DNA from: Tubiluchus corallicola
Taxonomy: Eukaryota > Animalia > Priapulida
Direction: 5' to 3'
Length of the DNA: 64,000 nucleotides
Assembly: GCA_030141605.1 (NCBI GenBank)
Contig: JAQGDQ010000001.1
Location: 1,054,001 to 1,118,000, forward strand
Shown here: in pieces, positions 4,806 to 56,807 of the stretch
How positions within the stretch are numbered: the stretch's first letter is position 1
How the letters are laid out: every line of letters starts with the position of its first letter
The notes under the pieces: model-generated
What the model was told of the DNA's origin: nothing
Databases searched by the model: none
What the model saw: only the letters and a program-made list of their open reading frames with translations
Position numbers and translations under genes: made by a program

Positions 4806-5131
4806 GGTGGGTGGGTGGGTGGTGGTGGTGGTGGTGGTGGTGGTGGTGGTGGTGGTGGTGGTGCAATAACACGGTTTTTCAGCAAACGATATGAAAATCG
4901 GTAAGATATAAGTGAACACGAAGAATCAGAGAGGTTATCTAATGGGTGAAAAATTATCAGGGATCACCAAACACTTATCATGCAAGTAGGTATAGAAGTA
5001 CAATTTAATAGACTGAGAACGATCCCATACAGTTGGTGCCTAAAAGACTTATATGAATGTTGTTAGAGAGACCTGGTCCTGTGAACAGTGTGTTTTCAAA
5101 AAGAGTTTAAATACTCTGATACAGTTGTTAC

Positions 5132-5488
5132 CTCTGTAACAATTGTCGATTCATCTTCGTTGCTATACCACCATCCATCCGGGCATTTCTCTATCTCTTT
5201 ACTAGTGAAATTTATCAGTTGACACTTGTCTATTAGTTTTGCTCCCTTACTGTCATATTTAACTGGTATGACATCAGTTGGATCCACACCAGGAGGAACT
5301 CTGCAATGATGGTCTGGAGTTGCTCCAATAAAGGAAATTGCCAGTGTGTGCCATGGGGCTATGATATTGTAAAAAGCAACATGGAGGAACACTAATAGCT
5401 GTGCTCGACTGTGGGATCCAAAATGCTCAAATACTTCGTCAACAAGCACAGGCCTTCTTGGATCGGCATTTTTGCTACATTTTAGCTC
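5132..5488 (-). CDS. SLC22-family transporter, N-terminal exon (TM1 + extracellular loop); initiator exon not identified
   Basis: ttttcag|GAG CTA AAA...GAG|gtaaca. Encodes VDEVFEHFG...PDHHCRVP...CPDGWWY...STIVTE, joining in frame to WDLVC. There is no in-frame ATG in this exon. Confidence 0.92.
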
Positions 5489-6367
5489 CTGAAAATAAAT
5501 AGTAAGTAAAGTGTGCAGTTGCAACAATGCCTAGTTAACAGGCATGTTGAAGAAATATCTAGTTTATTCGACAGCACTTAATAAACAAAACAAATGCTTA
5601 TACAGTATTAATTTAATGCATTGGGTGTGTGTAAAAACTAATGGATCCGCTAAAACGATTCAACACAACATCCCAGTATAACCTGTTTGTTGCTTTTTTG
5701 TGCGAACATACCGTACTTTACTTTTTTCTGAAGTCAATTGTGGCTAATTTTGAATTAACCCTTGTCATTATCCAAGCTGACGCTTTGAATCAGACATCTT
5801 TCGTGAATGAAACACTTAATGATGGGCGATAGCGCCCTTATTTTCAAAAGTGCATTGTGCATAAAACAGTAATCTTGCTCATCTCGAATCGCGATGTCAA
5901 TTTTTATAACCAGGGCCTGGATTCATGTACTGAATTTAACGAAGGTGTCCTTGTCTTACGCGCGCGGAAATATTTGTCTGTAATTCATGTAGATGTCTTA
6001 TCTCCTTAGACGATAAACTTCCATGCGACTGGAAAAGTTAATTCGATTTAAATAAACGTCTTAAGTCGCATTTATTAGGCGGGTAAGTTTGAGCGCACTT
6101 AGCGAGTTAGGACGGTACTCATTAAACAAAATTTTACCTTAATCGCACGCGTAGCTTTACGACGCTTCTAGATTTGTCGCAACACGACGATTGGTGTTGT
6201 TTCTCCTAATATTTCATTTCAAAATTTTGAAATCATCACGTAATATAATTTGGAAAAACTCTAAATGCAGTACCTACTTTTAGTAAATGTCAACAAACGA
6301 TTGACCAGTTGCTCTCTTGAGTCTCTTCTCTGCTCCGGTTTTTTCTCCCTTAATTCTATTCCCTTAT

Positions 6368-21657: not shown

Positions 21658-21779
21658 TCCACAAAGTGACTAAGATATTAGAAGGAGCCTGGCCAAGACT
21701 CGGATTTTGTCCTCCTTTCCACAAAGTGACTAAGATATTAGAAGGAGCCTGGCCAAGACTCGGATTTTGTCCTCCTTTC
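21658..21779. repeat. Exact 60-bp tandem duplication
   Basis: tccacaaagtgactaagatattagaaggagcctggccaagactcggattttgtcctcctt occurs twice in tandem. Confidence 0.95.
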
Positions 21780-44831: not shown

Positions 44832-45215
44832 TTACATACTTCAGCTGGAGCTCGAGCTCGCAGGCTTCTCAGCAAAGAAAGAATAGATGAGATTTTCGAC
44901 ACGACCAAGATGAAGTTTCGACAAGGCAGGTGGGCGGATGCCTTATTAGTCACCGTAACATCGTACCGGGACGTACTGACCGGCCAGTACCAGAGTCCCC
45001 TGGCTCCTGTAGTGGACATAGATATGGGATTATACATTGGGGCAGTGTCCATAGTAGTTATGATAGGTACAATTATATGTGTGGTCTGCGTGCGTTCCAT
45101 TGGACAGAAATTTAAGCCCAAGCGACGAGGTTTGGAAGCCCAAGGTTCTGGTATGTCAGCCGCTGCTACTCCTGCCATGTCTTGGATGGGATCGGGAGGT
45201 GGAAGTCAGTTGTGA
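44832..45215 (+). CDS. TPM/MOLO-1-like protein, exon 4 (end of TPM domain, TM helix, cytoplasmic tail, stop)
   Basis: ttttag|TTA CAT ACT TCA GCT GGA. Encodes LHTSAGARARRLL...KMKFRQGRWADAL..., a TM helix LYIGAVSIVVMIGTIICVVCV, then a basic stretch and SQL-TGA. The spliced CDS totals 969 nt = 322 aa. Confidence 0.88.
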   Translation, partial: LHTSAGARARRLLSKERIDEIFDTTKMKFRQGRWADALLVTVTSYRDVLTGQYQSPLAPVVDIDMGLYIGAVSIVVMIGTIICVVCVRSIGQKFKPKRRGLEAQGSGMSAAATPAMSWMGSGGGSQL

Positions 45216-47771: not shown

Positions 47772-48035
47772 TAAGGTGGCGGCGTTTACCACGTATCCAG
47801 GTAAGGTGGCGTTTACCCCATGTCGGGTAAGGTGGCGTTTACCACATATCCAGAATGCATTTATGCGTTAGCCAAATGCGGAATAGTGTCGTATAAAATA
47901 TCAATAGGAAATAGCTGCAGAAAAATAACTTATATCGCAGGTCTGATAAACGGGTGCATTGAAAACATTATAAACCGATGTTATCTATTCCGCATCCACA
48001 TAACACATTCCGGATGTCTGGTAAACGTCACTTAA
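47772..48035. mobile_element. PIF/Harbinger-type MITE with triplicated left end
   Basis: TIRs 47831-47857 and 48006-48032 (22/27 identity) are flanked by TAA on both sides. Extra left-TIR copies start at 47772 and 47802. Confidence 0.75.
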
Positions 48036-48849
48036 GATGTTACTGTTCGATTCCATAACAACTTCGCTTATACATGTATGTGTTTACAGTACTTCATCAG
48101 TGATTTCTTTTGATCGTTCTGGGCCTTGTTTTAGTTGCCACAATTTTGGTACAGTGATGTATTGTATCGAGGAAACAGTGCACAGTGAGAGCAGCTTTGG
48201 TGTACAAGGTTGATTTTACGTACATAATATTAATTTATATTTTCTGTTATATTGTGCATACTACGTAGGCTTAAAAATAAAAAATGACTAATTCTTGTTA
48301 TATTGCTGTTGTTATTATCAACGTTGTTGTTACTTCTCGTTCAAGACGTTTATTAGCACTTATTTGTCTTTTCAGTTTAGCTGTATGTAATAATATCCTG
48401 CACATCTCATATTTTTGGATTTTCTTAGAGGCCGTGTACTTACGTTATTTAAAGTAGTCTTATATACTGCACACTTGTGCGCTCTTATTGTGTCGATTAC
48501 CAATGAAAATAAAATAATTGATCGTAAAACATCTTTAATCTATTATGGCTAACGGTGTTTTTTTGTTCTATTTTGATCAATTTAAGAAATTTGCAAGAAT
48601 AAAATTAGTTGAAATTATTGTATAACGTATCAAATATACTGCAATATTTAATTTGCAAATTTGACTTATAATTATAGTGTTCTACTTGTACGACATTTAC
48701 AAAATTACTCTCATTTCAGTAATCTAGATTTGCTCTCCCTGCATAACAGCCTATGAAAGGTTCTTTTTACAAAGCTTTCGTATAAAAAAACTAGAATGTG
48801 GGCAAGTAGGTTTATGTTTCAGGCCCTGTAATTTTGTCGGTAATAAAAT

Positions 48850-50742
48850 GCCAAGATTCTAACCACCAGAATCCAGGCAACGGTCAAGCTCAACCCACTC
48901 CAGAGAGCCTTCCAACCAAGAGACGGCTGTTCCGAAAACCTGACTCTCCTAAACACCGTGATTCGGCATGCCCGAGCAAGTCATGGGGAATTAAACATCG
49001 CATTCCTCGACTTAGCAAAGGCGTTCGACACGGTTCCTCACACCTCGATCGTGAGGGCAATGCGAAGGTTCGGCCTTCCAGAGCAGGTTCAGCAAATCAT
49101 TGGGGATATGTATACGGGTGCTGCTACACGGATATCGATACCGGAAGCAAATACCCGCCGTATTAGCATCACGTCAGGTGTTAAGCAGGGATGCCCGCTA
49201 TCACCCCTGCTTTTCAACCTGGTAATCGACGAACTGATCTCGAAAGTCGGTTCTCGATTTGGCTATGGGATCGACGAGCACCAAGTGGCTATAGTTGGTT
49301 TTGCCGACGACCTAGTCCTAATGTCAGGCTCAAAACATGGCATGGGAGTTTTGCTGGAGACAGCCAATGGCTTCTTCACGAAACGAGGCATGGCTTTAAA
49401 CGCCAACAAATGCAAAGCCATGAGACTAGTCAAGGCATACCGGCGAAAGGCTATGAAAGTGCTAATAGAACCCACATGGGAGATCAGCCAGACTCCTATT
49501 CCAATGCTGGGAGTCAGTGACGCATACAAATACCTGGGAATTCCTATGACTGCTAAGGGACGACCCACCATGGACACCAAGTCTCTTAAAGCATGGCTTA
49601 TAAGAGTGGAAGGGGCACCACTCAAACCTCAACAAAAGGTGGATATGATCAGACAATATGTGATTCCGCGTCTGACATACCACTTCCGTATATGTGAGGT
49701 TCATATGAATGGCCTCAAGGGAGCAGACAGGCTTATAAGATCAAGCCTAAAACGTATACTTCATATGGCGACGGATGTCCCGAATGCATTCTTCTACATG
49801 CCAATGAAGAAGGGAGGGCTGGGATTTTCTTGTCTTGAAAAGGATGTTCCTTTGATGAAAGTCAAGATGCTCAGCCGATTGCAGGCCTCACCAGATCCGC
49901 TGGTGAACATGAGTGCATCTGCTCCAGTGTGGAATAGGGAGCTTGCGTGGGCTAAGAGGGTGGCGAGCCTCGAAGCCTACAGTAACGCAAAAGACATAAA
50001 TCGTGCAAAAAGGGATAACGATCGCAAACATCTATCGGCATTCAACGGTAAAGTGCATGGGAAGGGTTTTGCAGCCGTGTCTGCTGACCCACTGAGTACC
50101 CATTACCTACGTAGCAGCACACTCCTGAGCGGGGGTGATTATATCTTGGTTCTCAAGATGATCACCAACTCTCTACCAGTTAGAGTTAACACCACGAGAG
50201 GACAACCCAATGCAATCAGGAGATGTCGCAGGTGCGGGAGACATGCAGAGAGTCAGGTTCACGTACTTCAACAGTGCATAACAGTAAACAATGCCATATC
50301 ACGAAGGCACAATGCACTGTGCGAGGTGCTCGCCGAAGCCTTGAAGGGGCAGGGCTTTACGGTCGTCAGGGAACCTTGGTTCGAGATCAACAGAACAAGG
50401 TACCACCCAGACATCCTGGCGACCAAAGGTGGTCATACGTACGTTATCGATCCGACCATCTCGGCAGCAGGAAACATCTACTCGCTTAGGGCCAGGTGCA
50501 GGGACAAGGCCCTGAAGTACGAACCGATCCTCGATGCCGTCAAACAGCGGTGCGGCTCTGCCACTGCCTCGTCGCACGGCATCTGTGTGGGCTTTCGTGG
50601 GGAATGGGCAGGAGGAGAGAACGACGTTCTCCTGAAGACACTCGGTCTTCTGAACGTCAGAGCCAAACTAGTCCGCTCGGTGATTAGAGGCTCATGTATG
50701 GTGTTTAGAAAGTTCCTGGGAAGGCAAAGGAGGGAGACCTAG
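48850..50742 (+). CDS. R2-like polyprotein fragment: reverse transcriptase, CCHC zinc knuckle, restriction-like endonuclease
   Basis: Open frame from AKILTTRI...QRAF...DGCSENL (upstream of the listed ORF start). Motifs: AFLDLAKAFDTVPH, GVKQGCPLSPLLFN, FADD, YKYLG, R2-diagnostic APLKPQQK..IPRL, GGLG, CRRC..ESQVHVLQQC, RRHN, REP...PDI...VIDPTI...KALKY. Confidence 0.92.
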   Translation, partial: AKILTTRIQATVKLNPLQRAFQPRDGCSENLTLLNTVIRHARASHGELNIAFLDLAKAFDTVPHTSIVRAMRRFGLPEQVQQIIGDMYTGAATRISIPEANTRRISITSGVKQGCPLSPLLFNLVIDELISKVGSRFGYGIDEHQVAIVGFADDLVLMSGSKHGMGVLLETANGFFTKRGMALNANKCKAMRLVKAYRRKAMKVLIEPTWEISQTPIPMLGVSDAYKYLGIPMTAKGRPTMDTKSLKAWLIRVEGAPLKPQQKVDMIRQYVIPRLTYHFRICEVHMNGLKGADRLIRSSLKRILHMATDVPNAFFYMPMKKGGLGFSCLEKDVPLMKVKMLSRLQASPDPLVNMSASAPVWNRELAWAKRVASLEAYSNAKDINRAKRDNDRKHLSAFNGKVHGKGFAAVSADPLSTHYLRSSTLLSGGDYILVLKMITNSLPVRVNTTRGQPNAIRRCRRCGRHAESQVHVLQQCITVNNAISRRHNALCEVLAEALKGQGFTVVREPWFEINRTRYHPDILATKGGHTYVIDPTISAAGNIYSLRARCRDKALKYEPILDAVKQRCGSATASSHGICVGFRGEWAGGENDVLLKTLGLLNVRAKLVRSVIRGSCMVFRKFLGRQRRET

Positions 50743-51100
50743 GTCATCTCCTGCGCAGGATGTCACTCGAGTTCTTACATCCAAATGTGTGAAAGGTTTA
50801 TACCTAGGGGAAATCCGACTACTCTATGAGTAGCCGGTGGATACCGTACCTTTACGGTATCGAAAAGGCGAGTTTTGTTGGGTCTGGAGAAATCCAGTTC
50901 CCACGGAATTGACGGATTCCGTATCTTTACGGAAGAATTTGGAATTTGGCAAGTTTGACTCGAGTCAAAAATCACACAGGTGAACAGATCCGACGCCTGT
51001 GAAATCTGACAAAATAAAATAAAATAAAATAAAATAAAATAAAATAAAATAAAATAAAATAAAATAAAATAAAATAAAATAAAATAAAATAAAATAAAAA
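48850..51100 (+). mobile_element. 5'-truncated R2-clade (restriction-like endonuclease) non-LTR retrotransposon with 3' UTR and (AAAAT)n tail
   Basis: Abrupt shift to a GC-richer composition, a single ORF with RT + CCHC + PD..D..K..KY, a 3' UTR of about 270 nt and about 18 AAAAT units. Both flanks are AT-rich non-rDNA sequence. Confidence 0.93.
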
Positions 51101-54100
51101 TCTTTCTAAATAGCACAAAAGACAATTATTTATTACTTTTATTTATTTATTAGGTGTTAATCATTTATTTATTAGGTATTGATTATTTATATACGAAGCA
51201 CCATATGCAATTACTTGTTGTGCGCATGCTAGCGTGGGCGCATTATTTAATATACAAACCTACAATATAATATATGTGTAATTATATAGATTAATTGCAG
51301 GGCACGTAAATTGGTCCAGTTTTTAATGTGCCAAATCCGCTACCTCGCATTGGAGTAAAACGACCAAGAAACAAATGGCAGAACCTTCAACAAAAGTAAA
51401 AGAAGGATCCCTCTCTCTCTCTGTGTCTGTCTCTCTCCCTCCCTTCCTCTCTCTGTCTCTCTCTCTCCCTCCCTTTCACTGTCTCTCTTTCTCCCTTTCT
51501 CAGAGAAAGAAAGAGAGGGAGAGAAAAATCAATAAAAAATGCTTTACTTTTTTACATAGTAGGCAGCCCATCACGCAGTCAGCTAGCCTCTTTCCTCAGG
51601 AAGAACAATAAAATTTTATTTACAAGAAAACTGAAGAAGTATTTGCAAGTACATAATACAAACTTATTGCTACAATTTTTTTCCTTTTCATGAAATGTTT
51701 TCAGTTTTTTTAAACTAATAATTGCTTTTAATTGAGATATTCTTCTTTTATTAAAATTGCAAAAGTGATTTTGGCTTATCGAAATTGCGCGTATGCCAAC
51801 ATTATTGGTCAACTTAAGAATATTATTATTACAGTCAAAACCCCGCTCAAAATTTTGTAATCATCCGCCGTTTGACGCCGCAGCCGCTAATCGCAAAAAC
51901 GAAATACGTAACAATAGCCTTATTCGTCACTTCCTCTTTTACACTTTGTTACAGTGCGGCTTAAGCGCATGTTACGAAAAATGGGCTTTATAACACAGCA
52001 GTCATGATCATGGTTATCACGGTACCGCCTTCTATTTGTCGGCCACGCGCATGTGACAAAAAGGCGCCGCTGCCAATCTTAGTAGATTCAATGAGCCGCA
52101 GGTAGCTTTGAAATTTGAGTATCCGAGGTAATTATTATTTAATATAAGCTTTGATTTAAAATAAGCTATTGTAGTTTTCAATATTTTAGAGCATTCTTTA
52201 TTCTGAACTCGTGTTTACACAATCATCCGGTTTTCCTTTAAAGTAATGACGGAACAAACCTCCAATTTATCATTATCATTAATGAAATAATGTATCATGT
52301 GCGTCACTTTTATATCTGAATAAATATTCCATTTAAATCTACTCAAGAACAATTACATTAGCATTCTAGTCCTTGGAGAAACTGAGAATACATCATTGCA
52401 TTGATGCAGCATTATCAAAACTTTCTCCATCGATTAAGAAATTATGTTACAGCTAGACTTGTCTAATTAGTTAAACGAGTTGCTTTGCTTTAAAGACACT
52501 ATATTTGTGATACGTATGGCGGATAAACTGAAAAGACAAAGTAACTTATTTTCACAGATTTATTTATTTTTAAGCTGGTCAACAGTAATGGCGGATGCAA
52601 CCTCAGATAGAGGTCAACTTCTGGCCAAGCTTTAAGAAAATTTATTAAAAAGGCTAACAGAAAAGAATTCATTCTTTGGGAGCACAAATTATCAGTGTCC
52701 AGTTAAACTGTATGTTTAAACTCATCCCTGTAAAAATGAACAAACAAGTATTGTGGTATTTGATATTTAAGGTTACATTTGGTAATTTTCTTTGGTAATC
52801 TGTTGCCTGAGAACTGACTTACAAAATTCAGAGACAACTTTTACATTTAATTATCAATATACATTGGCATTTGAACTACAAAATTGATTTATTATAACAT
52901 AAGTGTAAAGAAATGTAGTTCTTATACATGCATTTTGTTCTAGCTACTAATATTTGGCTTTTGCATTTAAAATGGGATTCAGAATTCTGTGTTATAATGA
53001 ACCACCTGTTTTCTATTTACTATTTTGCAAACAATACTATTTGACAAAAATCGAATAAAAATACAATTACATTTTGATGATGATTATACTTCAGACAAAA
53101 CTACATAGCAAGTATTAAATACAGATGCAACAGATTAAAATAGCGTTATTTCCGCCTACAGATGGCAGCACGAACAAGAATTTGTTATGAACTGCTGCTC
53201 TGTACAGTAAGTTGTAATCTTGACTATTGAAGCTTGAGCAGCGACCATAGAAAATGATCATCATTCCACAAAGAGATTTATTGAAGCAAAACAAATCAAA
53301 ATCTTGGCTGCTATGAGAATTTATGCTATAATCAGACAGTTTTTTTATTTACAATCACAACTTCACGTCACATTAATAACACACATACATTTACAATGAT
53401 TACTGTTGAACTGACCAAAAAGATATGAAAAGATCAGCATGCGCTATCATCAAAGCACGAAAAGTATCAAAATTAACAAAGAGAATGCTTTCAACTTGGT
53501 ACTAAAACGTTTTCTGTGGTTTTCTGTGCGTTTGCTAGTTGTTTTTTTTCTGTTAATAATGTACAAACATTTGACAGTTTGACATTTATCATAATCTTTA
53601 TCCTATTGCTTTTAGCATTTTTAAGCTTAAAATTACCACTGTGAAGTTGTTGGCAATGAAAATCACCCCAAAATTATTACAAATAAGGTATACCAGTAAT
53701 TGTTAAATTACATATTTAGGCTTTCTACATCCTACGGTCAACAATTTTATATAGGCCACCTTTGGGCAACACTCTATCCTAGAAATGTGTACTGGCTAGC
53801 TAGCTAAAACTTGCACAAGCGACTTTTGTTTTTTTCTGATATAACTGGAATTCTAACACGCTGCATTTTCCATTAAGAACATGTAACAAAATGAGCAATG
53901 AAACAACCACATTGTGGCATTAACATCATCTTAATTACTTTAATGAGTAACATAGCCAATTGGCTCACAAAAACAATCAAACTATAAAATAACTTCTGTA
54001 TAACAAACAGACAGTGACCATTTCAGAATGACTTAAAGTATTCAGAAAAACCTGTGCAAAATCAAGGCATCAACATTGAATCTCTACATAAATTACTAAT

Positions 54101-54714: not shown

Positions 54715-54887
54715 TTACTTTCCTAGCTCTATGTAGCTATTATAATTAGTAATATTGCGCTTAAGTATTTCAGAGCATGGTCCTAATACACGCTCAAAAC
54801 GTGCACGATCCAACTTCACACATTTTAATGTACCTACTGCTTGTACTGTAGCTGCCCGTGGCTTATCAAATATGAGAGCAATCTCGC
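54715..54887 (-). CDS. PRKAR1: cAMP-dependent protein kinase type I regulatory subunit, last coding exon
   Basis: ttttag|GC GAG ATT GCT... Encodes [15 protein letters not shown]...[39 protein letters not shown] (CNB-B phosphate-binding cassette). Confidence 0.95.
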
Positions 54888-56807
54888 CTAAAAAATAAAT
54901 AAAACACCAATGAAATGAAATATTTACATCTCAGAAAACAGTAACTGTGACAAAATGAATCATGAAATTTAATAACCAGGAGCTTAGTTCAGGTGAACAG
55001 TGGTACTTTTGGCCACACTTAACAAAGCGCATGTTATGCAAGTTATAGCCTCTACACATTACACTATACTATGTTCCTGGTCTTCTAGTAAATCAGAATG
55101 CATTTGAAAAATGTCAAAGCATAGGTTACAAAGATACGTGTAACTAGTTTTGTACAATGATACTAGAACTTATTTCAGTCCCACAAACTAAGCCCAATTT
55201 ATAAGATGCAAGACTCAATTTCTAAATGATAGTGACAATGTTGCATATCAAAAATAGTTTTTCACATCACAGGGTCACATACTAAATTCAAACTTGGTTA
55301 ACTGCCGTTGAACAGGAATAATTTTGGGGTTAGTTCATGGAAAGAGGATATAAAGAGGACCGTCTTTAAAGATATTAATAAATAAACAGCCATTAGCAGG
55401 CTTAGCAAACTCTTATCTCTGAATGACTGCAATTCACACAATATACTCTGCTCGCTCTAGGTTAACAAGTGATGTTTATAGGAATAAGCGCACAACACCA
55501 CAACTGAATTGATAGGTACAGCGCTGTTTTGTGCAATGCATTTCCGAAGTGCAGGCTCTGGTGTCCATCTACCTTACTATCTAGCGAATGGCAAAATGCA
55601 TGTAACAGTGAATAATTAGGTACTCGAATTAAAATTAATATTTTTTCTGCAGTAACAATTCTTTCACGTAAATCATTCTTAAAAAACAAAGTATTCTATT
55701 CCAATATTTCGAAAGTTACAGTGCTTTTAGTTATTGTTTATAACTGAGTCCAGTTTTCCATTAACTAAACAAATCATCCGAGTACTGACCAAAGCTAGCA
55801 ATTCACACTTTAAGGATACTAGTCTGCTAAGCAGCAACTAAGCTGCGAGCACAAAACTCAGCACTTTTCTAATGCTTTAACTGTAACCTTTAATTAATGA
55901 CTGCAACTGAAAAACTGGAAAGAGTTGCTGCAAGAACACTTGGTACACTTAGCAAGTTAGCAAATTAGTACTGCTACATACATAATAATACAGAAAATGT
56001 TAAATCGATCCGTCAATTTAACATAACCACACTTAATCAATTGCATGCTTCAGAATGTTTATTTCTCATCGGTTATAGATCCACTGTTATTCTATTACTT
56101 AAGCACACAGCGACGTATTAACTTCCAAAATCAGTCATGAAAGTGACGATCATTTTTTTATTTGCTCCACTGACTAACCTCTAGGTAGGCAGTGTGTGTT
56201 TAATGGATAATATTATAAGGTATCCACAAGCTACTTGAAATAGAAAATTTGTAAGGGATTTGCAGCTGCTTTGCCAGTTAAATGTTTGAAACCTTATGAT
56301 CATCTTCCTTTCTGTGCTCGAAAAATGTTTCCCTTTTATTTTTGCTAAAATATCAAAACTCTAGTTTTGTACTTTATAATCAGTGATATTTAATAACTAT
56401 TGGTTGTCAATATCTGAGCATATAATTATTTACAACATACAAGCAAAAATAGCTAATCCTAAGGTGCATTAGAGAATGTTATCACTCCTAATTATCTTGG
56501 CTCACTCCACTTTGCTCTCCAGAGACATTTTGTTTTTTCATGTTTGTCTAATTACGTAATAACAGCTGTCTGTCTTTTGCAATTAGTGTGATTATTATCA
56601 CGGTAATTATTTATATAATGTCTTTTTTATCCCAAATCTTGAACAAATGCACCTCAATAGCAACTTTTCTCAATCCATAAGGAAATTAGTTGAAAAACAG
56701 TACAGCGACTTCATAATTATAGTGGATTGATCCACGCCATAATTATTATTATTAAAAATAGTAATGATATGATAAAGTGTGACTGCAGTTGCAAGCAAAT
56801 GGAGACC

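What the first reader, a model, noticed from the sequence alone, without database searches (positions are those of the whole stretch)
48830..51125. Young R2-clade retrotransposon outside rDNA, at an AATAAAA site matching its own (AAAAT)n tail
Seen: the protein has R2-type motifs (APLKPQQK, CRRC-H-C knuckle, RHN, PD..D..K..KY). Neither flank is 28S/18S rDNA: left ...gtcggtAATAAAAt|gcc, right (AAAAT)n aaaa|tctttctaaatagc. The 630-codon frame has no stop or frameshift, so the insertion is probably recent. Established: most R2 elements insert at one 28S rDNA site (TAAGG/TAGCC) and usually end in poly-A; a few R2 lineages have lost or changed specificity, and Dong/R4-type RLE elements target (TAA)n microsatellites. 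Inference: this may be an R2 lineage retargeted to AATAAAA/(TAAAA)n or poly(A)-signal-like sites, possibly by tail-target pairing, with AATAAAA(T) as a short TSD. It could equally be a non-specific R2 family. Either would be a candidate new RLE target specificity.
Basis: partly seen in the sequence, partly recalled or inferred. Interest (0 to 1): 0.85.

Follow-up and report, generated by a model that had tools for sequence, protein, structure and literature searches.

The report
R2 retrotransposon that left ribosomal DNA
This is a shortened, likely recent copy of an R2-type jumping gene that sits outside the ribosomal RNA genes such elements normally target; sister copies lie at unrelated sites, its relatives include elements inserted in 18S ribosomal DNA, and it likely starts each insertion by pairing its own (AAAAT)n tail with A/T-rich DNA rather than by recognising one new fixed site.

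Summary
The element is real: a 5'-truncated R2-superclade retrotransposon at 48848-51099, with an open 631-codon RT/zinc-knuckle/RLE frame, a structured 3' UTR and a pure (AAAAT)n tail, in non-ribosomal DNA. Contigs from two samples show a low-copy family of near-identical copies. Six other 5' junctions and two other 3' junctions are all different, none is rDNA, and none of the six ends in AATAAAA. Strict retargeting to AATAAAA is therefore not supported, although the match at this copy exceeds chance (0.1-0.7%). Trees place the protein in lineage A, inside a group holding two elements inserted at one 18S rDNA site (R8-type); grouping with canonical 28S elements was rejected (AU p=0.006). Best reading: a dispersed family of relaxed specificity, likely descended from 18S-targeting elements, whose tail likely pairs with A/T-rich primers, as lineage-A R2 proteins are reported to require. 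Caveats: full-length copies were not located and could sit in 18S; only 24 of 67 loose ends were shown; Hydra R8 itself was not in the tree. Non-site-specific R2 families are already described (R2NS, BLAG, sponge elements), so this is a new variant.

The parts
48842..48849 (+). Tail-like word AATAAAAT at the 5' junction: candidate short target-site duplication or priming site; the last AT is shared with the element (microhomology)
   Evidence: (table 7)
48848..50742 (+). 5'-truncated ORF (frame open 48847-50742, 631 aa); lacks the N-terminal zinc fingers, Myb and the start of the RT, so this copy cannot itself be autonomous (inferred)
48865..49542 (+). Reverse transcriptase core (Pfam RVT_1, residues 7-232), FADD at about 49300-49311
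49615..49638 (+). APLKPQQK motif; the 28S-flanked L006 has APLKPRQR, the Utopia-like loci have SLLAPWQK
50224..50277 (+). CCHC zinc knuckle (C460, C463, H472, C477)
50305..50607 (+). Restriction-like endonuclease: RH 487-488, E509, PD 521-522, K554..KY 557-558, RG.W, all intact
   Evidence: motif roles from PMC4838377 passages
50743..51010 (+). 3' UTR, predicted to fold well (z -4.75, 0 of 200 shuffles as stable), with a duplicated 19-nt hairpin at 50839-50857 and 50914-50932
50905..50916 (+). 12-nt word identical to 18S sequence just downstream of the site used by relative L005; possible relic, weak evidence
   Evidence: exact word p about 0.003, gapped score p 0.09; no SSU hit
51011..51099 (+). 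(AAAAT)n tail, 17.8 units, 100% pure; two other copies carry about 2-4 units before unique flank

Best explanation
This is a 5'-truncated, likely recent copy of a low-copy lineage-A R2 family whose truncated copies lie at many unrelated non-ribosomal sites, which likely descends from 18S-rDNA-targeting (R8-type) elements and likely primes reverse transcription by pairing its own (AAAAT)n tail with short A/T-rich stretches at the nick. Shown: anatomy, multiple near-identical copies, diverse non-rDNA junctions, tree position, and 18S flanks of two relatives. Inferred: an intact copy elsewhere supplies protein; the RLE nicks with relaxed specificity; outside rDNA no read-through rRNA supplies the few primer-pairing bases that lineage-A proteins are reported to need, so the tail would supply them and favour sites like AATAAAA(A)T; reverse transcription stopped inside the RT region and the cDNA joined the upstream flank over an AT microhomology, leaving a 0-8 nt duplication that cannot be told apart from the tail.
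For: Single-contig depth over the element is about 9-13x the flank in X1 (1713-2369 vs 183) and about 6-9x in X3 (rough, the tool warns depth is not copy number). Six other 5' junctions (48868, 49282, 50410, 50455, 50776, 50962) and two other 3' junctions (51023, 51029) are mutually different and none reads as rDNA. The 50962 junction lies on a 1763-bp contig at flank-level depth, 12.5 vs 11.7. All three 3' junctions seen begin with an out-of-register A-run plus T. Tail-like junction word p 0.1-0.7%. Careful IQ-TREE of 41 rows: the query lies in a 99/95 clade of 22 rows holding both L001 and L005, whose flanks are 18S by Rfam at adjoining model positions 1033-1144 and 1146-1198. AU test rejects query plus six canonical A2/A3 rows, p 0.006. 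Closest full-length relative P0352 has CCHH/CCHC/CCHH fingers and a Myb-like stretch. Avian lineage-A R2 needs a 3' tail that pairs with the primer, and its off-target sites share little except that pairing (PMC11371274 passages). Listed variants are 24 of 32 third-position and 22 of 32 synonymous, as expected for a family under selection.
Against: No full-length copy was located, so master copies may sit in rDNA. One search showed only 24 of 67 loose ends; one search masked the tail and dropped 4 more. Tail pairing rests on 3 3' junctions, no empty site was seen, and 0 of 6 other 5' flanks carry a tail-like duplication. The query is a long branch (0.83; at most 37-39% identical to anything found). 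With Utopia as outgroup the root fell inside the 18S-containing group, and the query's subgroup with L005 had only 84 SH-aLRT (quick tree). The AU group was named after seeing the tree. Targets are known for only 2 of the 22 rows in the clade, so 18S ancestry is parsimony on two points. Resemblance of the flanks to the 18S site was not significant (p 0.06-0.10).
Confidence: 0.6

Rival explanations
1. The family is still an 18S-specific (R8-type) element whose intact copies live in rDNA; the window copy and the other dispersed junctions are leaky off-target insertions that persist because they escape rDNA turnover.
For: Relatives on both sides in the tree sit in 18S. The 18S site continues (T)AAAGG after the junction, so a TAAAA tail could pair there too. 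RT-region depth leaves room for several unplaced long copies. Two of seven flanks resemble the 18S site at 11/13 and 11/14 positions (scored by eye). A 2026 review warns that extant locations can mislead (PMC13580325 section 7).
Against: No 18S junction among the 24 loose ends shown or the 4. Seven distinct non-rDNA 5' junctions across two samples is a large share of a family of roughly 10-20 copies. The flank resemblance is not significant.
Confidence: 0.25
2. The lineage has been retargeted to a new fixed sequence, AATAAAA or (TAAAA)n microsatellites.
For: Junction match at this copy p 0.1-0.7%. One other 3' flank begins with a tail-like AAATAAAAT. Microsatellite-specific RLE families exist (HERO, Togen; PMC4640811 passages).
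Against: 0 of 6 other 5' flanks end in AATAAAA or carry AAAAT repeats, and two other copies pass from 2-4 tail units into unique DNA, so the repeat is a tail, not a target array.
Confidence: 0.08
3. A stray copy of an ordinary 28S-specific R2, or a wholly random inserter whose AATAAAA match is chance.
For: Some 28S families have off-site copies (R2-1_CGi, PMC5035012). AATAAAA is frequent in this 65% A+T window.
Against: AU test rejects grouping with canonical A2/A3 rows; no 28S junction seen; the chance explanation needs an event of under 1%.
Confidence: 0.07

Closest known systems
R8 (R8Hm-A/B, Hydra; R2-A clade, 18S rDNA-specific)
   Same: Lineage A; the query's clade holds two elements in one 18S site. 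That this is the Hydra R8 site is recalled from Kojima 2006, which I did not read; papers read say only that R8 is in 18S and in R2-A.
   Different: All 7 5' and 3 3' junctions seen for this family are outside rDNA, and it has an (AAAAT)n tail.
R2NS-1_SMed (planarian, R2D) and R2NS-1_CSi (liver fluke, R2C)
   Same: R2 families with young copies at unrelated non-rDNA sites (PMC5035012 text and S1 Fig).
   Different: Different clades (D and C); this family groups in lineage A, so it would be an independent loss. S1 Fig lists flanks only, so tails could not be compared.
BLAG 1-6 (cockroach) and sponge non-site-specific R2-homologous elements
   Same: R2-like, low copy, unique flanks (PMC7650587 sections 3.3, 3.5; PMC13188248 passages).
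   Different: BLAG is a sister clade to the R2 superclade and the sponge elements are described as neither lineage A nor D. Neither was in my tree, so relatedness is untested.
Avian lineage-A R2 (R2Tg, ZoAl) and turtle R2
   Same: Best PDB hits; reported need for tail-primer pairing, the model for the mechanism proposed here.
   Different: 28S-specific; pairing bases come from read-through rRNA; separate clade.
Crocodilian Utopia with weakened U2 preference
   Same: Precedent for relaxed specificity leaving target-like words at junctions (PMC4640811 passage).
   Different: NeSL clade; separated from the query by a 100-support branch; relic target preference here was not significant.

Membership tests
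R2 superclade | Single ORF with RT, CCHC knuckle and C-terminal RLE | tested here: met
R2 superclade | Groups with R2 rather than NeSL/Utopia in an RT-RLE tree | tested here: met
   (100 SH-aLRT against three Utopia-like rows); R4, HERO, CRE and BLAG references were not included
R2 superclade | N-terminal zinc finger(s) plus Myb domain | not testable with these tools
   copy is 5'-truncated; only 30 nt of upstream element seen; closest relatives have them
R2 superclade | 5' HDV-like ribozyme | not testable with these tools
   5' UTR absent from this copy
Canonical R2 (28S-specific) | Inserted at the conserved 28S site | tested here: not met
   0 of 7 5' and 0 of 3 3' junctions seen
R2 lineage A | Tree position among three-finger (CCHH/CCHC/CCHH) elements | tested here: met
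   finger count inferred from relatives, not from this family
R8 (18S-specific) | Inserted at the 18S site | tested here: not met
   no 18S junction among 24 of 67 loose ends shown; full-length copies unplaced
R8 (18S-specific) | Clade with 18S-site elements | tested here: inconclusive
   99/95 clade with L001 and L005, but not a clade when rooted on Utopia; Hydra R8 not in tree
Non-site-specific R2 (R2NS type) | Near-identical copies at unrelated flanks | tested here: met
Non-site-specific R2 (R2NS type) | No rDNA-resident copies | tested here: inconclusive
   43 of 67 loose ends not shown; no host assembly held
Microsatellite-specific RLE elements (Dong/R4, HERO, Togen) | Target repeat on both flanks of most copies | tested here: not met
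   0 of 6 other 5' flanks carry the repeat

The most novel reading that the evidence does not exclude
An 18S-targeting R8-type lineage escaped rDNA by gaining a self-contained (AAAAT)n tail, possibly together with captured 18S read-through sequence in its 3' UTR. The tail replaces the rRNA bases needed for primer pairing and now steers insertion to AATAAAA-like sites: a natural case of an R2 retargeted by its own RNA tail.
Probability: 0.25. Interest if true: 0.75.

Novelty: new variant of a known kind. Interest (0 to 1): 0.45.

Why it matters
R2 proteins are being developed for site-specific gene insertion, and how a lineage loses or changes its target is an open question with few natural examples. 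A young lineage-A family with intact catalytic motifs, dispersed copies and 18S-targeting relatives gives a natural comparison for separating protein-based DNA recognition from RNA tail pairing. The two 18S-inserted relatives found in metagenome contigs also suggest that R8-type elements, attributed to Hydra in the papers I read, may be more widespread; their hosts are unknown. If the family proves to be just another generalist R2, it adds one independent loss to a short known list.

Tried and rejected
No host genome is held, so copies could not be enumerated. The second read-laying run, aimed at more 3' junctions, masked the tail and gave none. Relic 18S preference in flanks: seven flanks scored against the empty 18S site (six by eye, one by script) gave 9, 8, 7, 5, 4, 4, 5 against a window null, p 0.06-0.10, not significant. 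18S relic in the 3' UTR: exact 12-mer p about 0.003 in 1000 shuffles but post hoc and one of three flanks tried; gapped score p 0.09; no SSU match by Rfam; an unrelated element, L015, holds a 14-nt 18S word by apparent chance; kept as a weak lead only. L081 looked closest (52%) but only over 130 conserved RT residues; its family (P0019) falls outside the query's clade, its first 900 nt have no Rfam match, and its source record holds no further copy. Viral contigs gave no R2-like relative (L085 looks like L1). Of 80 metagenome loci only 4 had rDNA target words at junctions: L001, L005 (18S) and L006, L009 (28S). No other copy or fragment lies in the window. Host placement failed: one search found nothing, one search gave only unnamed eukaryote clusters. 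Look-ups gave a species name to 2 of 30 proteins (turtle R2, Macrostomum). Earlier-scan searches for similar findings returned nothing. No structure prediction was run.
Full report
Observation. The window holds one open frame of 631 codons at 48847-50742 on the + strand. It has an RT core (Pfam RVT_1, E 2e-31), APLKPQQK, a CCHC knuckle and an RLE with RH, PD..D, K..KY and RG.W intact (roles of these motifs from PMC4838377 passages). The five best solved-structure matches are R2-type proteins (E 1e-76 to 1e-82), far ahead of LINE-1. A 268-nt 3' UTR follows, predicted to fold better than all 200 shuffles (z -4.75), then 17.8 perfect AAAAT units. The element is about 50% G+C in 32-35% surroundings. 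No Rfam family matches the window at gathering thresholds, and a recalled 28S target word is absent at up to three mismatches. It lies between a TPM-like exon (+, 44832-45215, weak Pfam hit) and a cNMP-binding exon (-, 54718-54930); whether it is intronic or intergenic was not established.

Boundaries and copies. No host genome is held. Four public runs from two samples hold the element, and their contigs were laid on 48300-51030. All four show the element continuing upstream of 48848 as in-frame RT sequence, so this copy is truncated inside the RT and the AT at 48848-48849 fits both flank and element. Single-contig depth over the element is about 9-13 times the flank in X1 and 6-9 times in X3; the tool warns that depth is not copy number, so I read this only as a low-copy family. 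The window copy differs from the majority at about nine listed places in 2.16 kb (29 substitution rows and 20 indel rows were not shown). Of the four such differences in the ORF, two are synonymous. Of 32 listed minority variants, 24 are third-position and 22 synonymous. With the open frame and pure tail, this points to a young copy of a family under selection (inference).

Target sites. One search showed 24 of 67 loose ends. Setting aside adapters, the element's own upstream part and a diverged subfamily, six are other 5' junctions (48868, 49282, 50410, 50455, 50776, and 50962 in two runs) and two are other 3' junctions (51023, 51029). The 49282 end is only 52 nt and could be chimeric, and the 50410 junction may lie a few bases further up. 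All differ from each other. None resembles the 18S flank of L001/L005 or the recalled 28S upstream flank, and none of the six 5' flanks ends in AATAAAA. The 50962 junction lies on a 1763-bp contig at flank-level depth. The two other 3' ends pass from 2-4 tail units into unique DNA, so the repeat is the element's tail and not a target array. All three 3' junctions start with an out-of-register A-run and a T. At the window copy a 7-8 nt tail-like word ends at the 5' junction, which happens at 0.1-0.7% of background positions. Every reconstruction of the empty site contains AATAAAA(A)T, with a duplication of 0-8 nt that cannot be separated from the tail. No empty allele was seen: the X1 contig crosses the junction unbranched.

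Relatives. Three protein searches found nothing above 39% identity over the full length. A FastTree of 338 rows put the query in a clade of 67 (0.993), sister to a group whose full-length member has CCHH/CCHC/CCHH fingers and a Myb-like stretch. L001's 5' flank matches SSU model positions 1033-1144 (E 4e-24), and L005's 3' flank matches 1146-1198 (E 5e-16), with the same upstream word at its 5' end. Two others, L006 and L009, sit at the canonical 28S site and group elsewhere. A careful IQ-TREE on 41 hand-picked representatives placed the query in a 99/95 clade of 22 rows with both 18S-site elements; its exact sister is unresolved. Forcing it with six canonical A2/A3 rows cost 34 log units, AU p 0.006 (group named after seeing the tree). 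Against this, a quick tree of 72 rows rooted on three Utopia-like rows put the root inside that group and gave the query's subgroup with L005 only 84. Targets are known for 2 of the 22 rows. That this 18S site is the Hydra R8 site is recalled, not checked.

Mechanism. Shown: truncated RLE-type element, element-borne tail, diverse non-rDNA junctions, lineage-A position. Inferred: standard target-primed reverse transcription by an intact copy elsewhere, with relaxed nicking specificity. Zhang et al. (PMC11371274, passages) report that avian lineage-A proteins need about 4 nt of template tail pairing with the nicked primer, and that their off-target sites share little with the rDNA site except that pairing. 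An element outside rDNA gets no read-through rRNA to supply those bases, so its own tail would do so and favour short A/T-rich sites. That explains the match at this copy without a fixed new target. The same tail could pair at the 18S site, which continues (T)AAAGG, so the leaky-R8 rival stays alive at 0.25.

Leads tested and found weak. Two flanks resemble the 18S site, but the seven scores together are not significant (p 0.06-0.10; six scored by eye). A 12-nt 18S word in the 3' UTR has p about 0.003 as an exact match but p 0.09 as a gapped alignment and no Rfam support; an unrelated element carries a 14-nt 18S word.

Known kinds. Kojima 2016 (PMC5035012; parts 1-4 of 5 and S1 Fig read) describes R2NS-1_SMed (R2D) and R2NS-1_CSi (R2C) as non-specific and R8/R9 as target switches. 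Zagoskina 2020 (PMC7650587; abstract and sections 3.3, 3.5) describes BLAG. Hassan (PMC12247875, abstract and two of three Results parts; PMC13188248, passages and a search of 12 of 16 supplements) describes non-site-specific sponge elements; the query's peptide word was not found in those 12 files, and 4 unsearched files may bear on this. A 2026 review (PMC13580325; passages and section 7) says few R2 are generalists and that specificity is probably a continuum. PMC3581529 and PMC4640811 were read as passages. Nine searches returned no paper on a dispersed R8-related family or an AAAAT-tailed R2. The library lacks most subscription papers, and Kojima 2006, Gladyshev 2009, Fell 2025 and Repbase were not seen.

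Verdict. Observation confirmed; interpretation partly supported. This works like a non-site-specific R2 and fails the insertion-site test for both canonical R2 and R8 on the junctions seen. The new elements are its probable origin in the 18S-targeting branch of lineage A and its pentamer tail. New variant of a known kind, interest 0.45.

Noticed in passing
L005:1-54 and 2193-2246; L001:1-107: Two metagenome R2-like elements inserted at one 18S rDNA site (R8-type); their proteins are distant from each other and their 18S flanks differ, so hosts differ; hosts unknown.
   Followed up: partly
L081:66-449: Lineage-A R2-like element (three fingers plus Myb) as a likely eukaryotic contaminant in a bacterial MAG; its 5' region has a roughly 215-nt duplicated module with no Rfam match. 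The related P0064 cluster has 15 members on long contigs, hinting at another dispersed family.
   Followed up: partly
PMC13188248 supplement file 7, Table S2: The trout 28S-flanked R2 (R2-1_OMk) carries about 37 nt resembling this same 18S site near its 5' end.
   Followed up: no
window 49050-49260, 50401, 50551, 50625: A second, diverged subfamily (about 90% identical where laid, mostly synonymous changes) is present in both samples.
   Followed up: partly
window 5096-5530 (-): Exon of an SLC22/organic cation transporter-like gene (best PDB hit OCT2, E 2e-5).
   Followed up: partly
window 44832-45215 (+) and 54718-54930 (-): TPM-domain plus transmembrane exon (MOLO-1-like, name recalled; weak Pfam hit) and a cyclic-nucleotide-binding exon flank the insertion convergently.
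   Followed up: no
L003, L004, L007: Utopia-like elements (SLLAPWQK); L004 has U2 snRNA-like sequence at its ends (recognised by eye); used as outgroup.
   Followed up: partly
window 47781-47853 and 21658-21779: A 26-bp unit in 2.7 copies and a perfect 60-bp tandem duplication.
   Followed up: no
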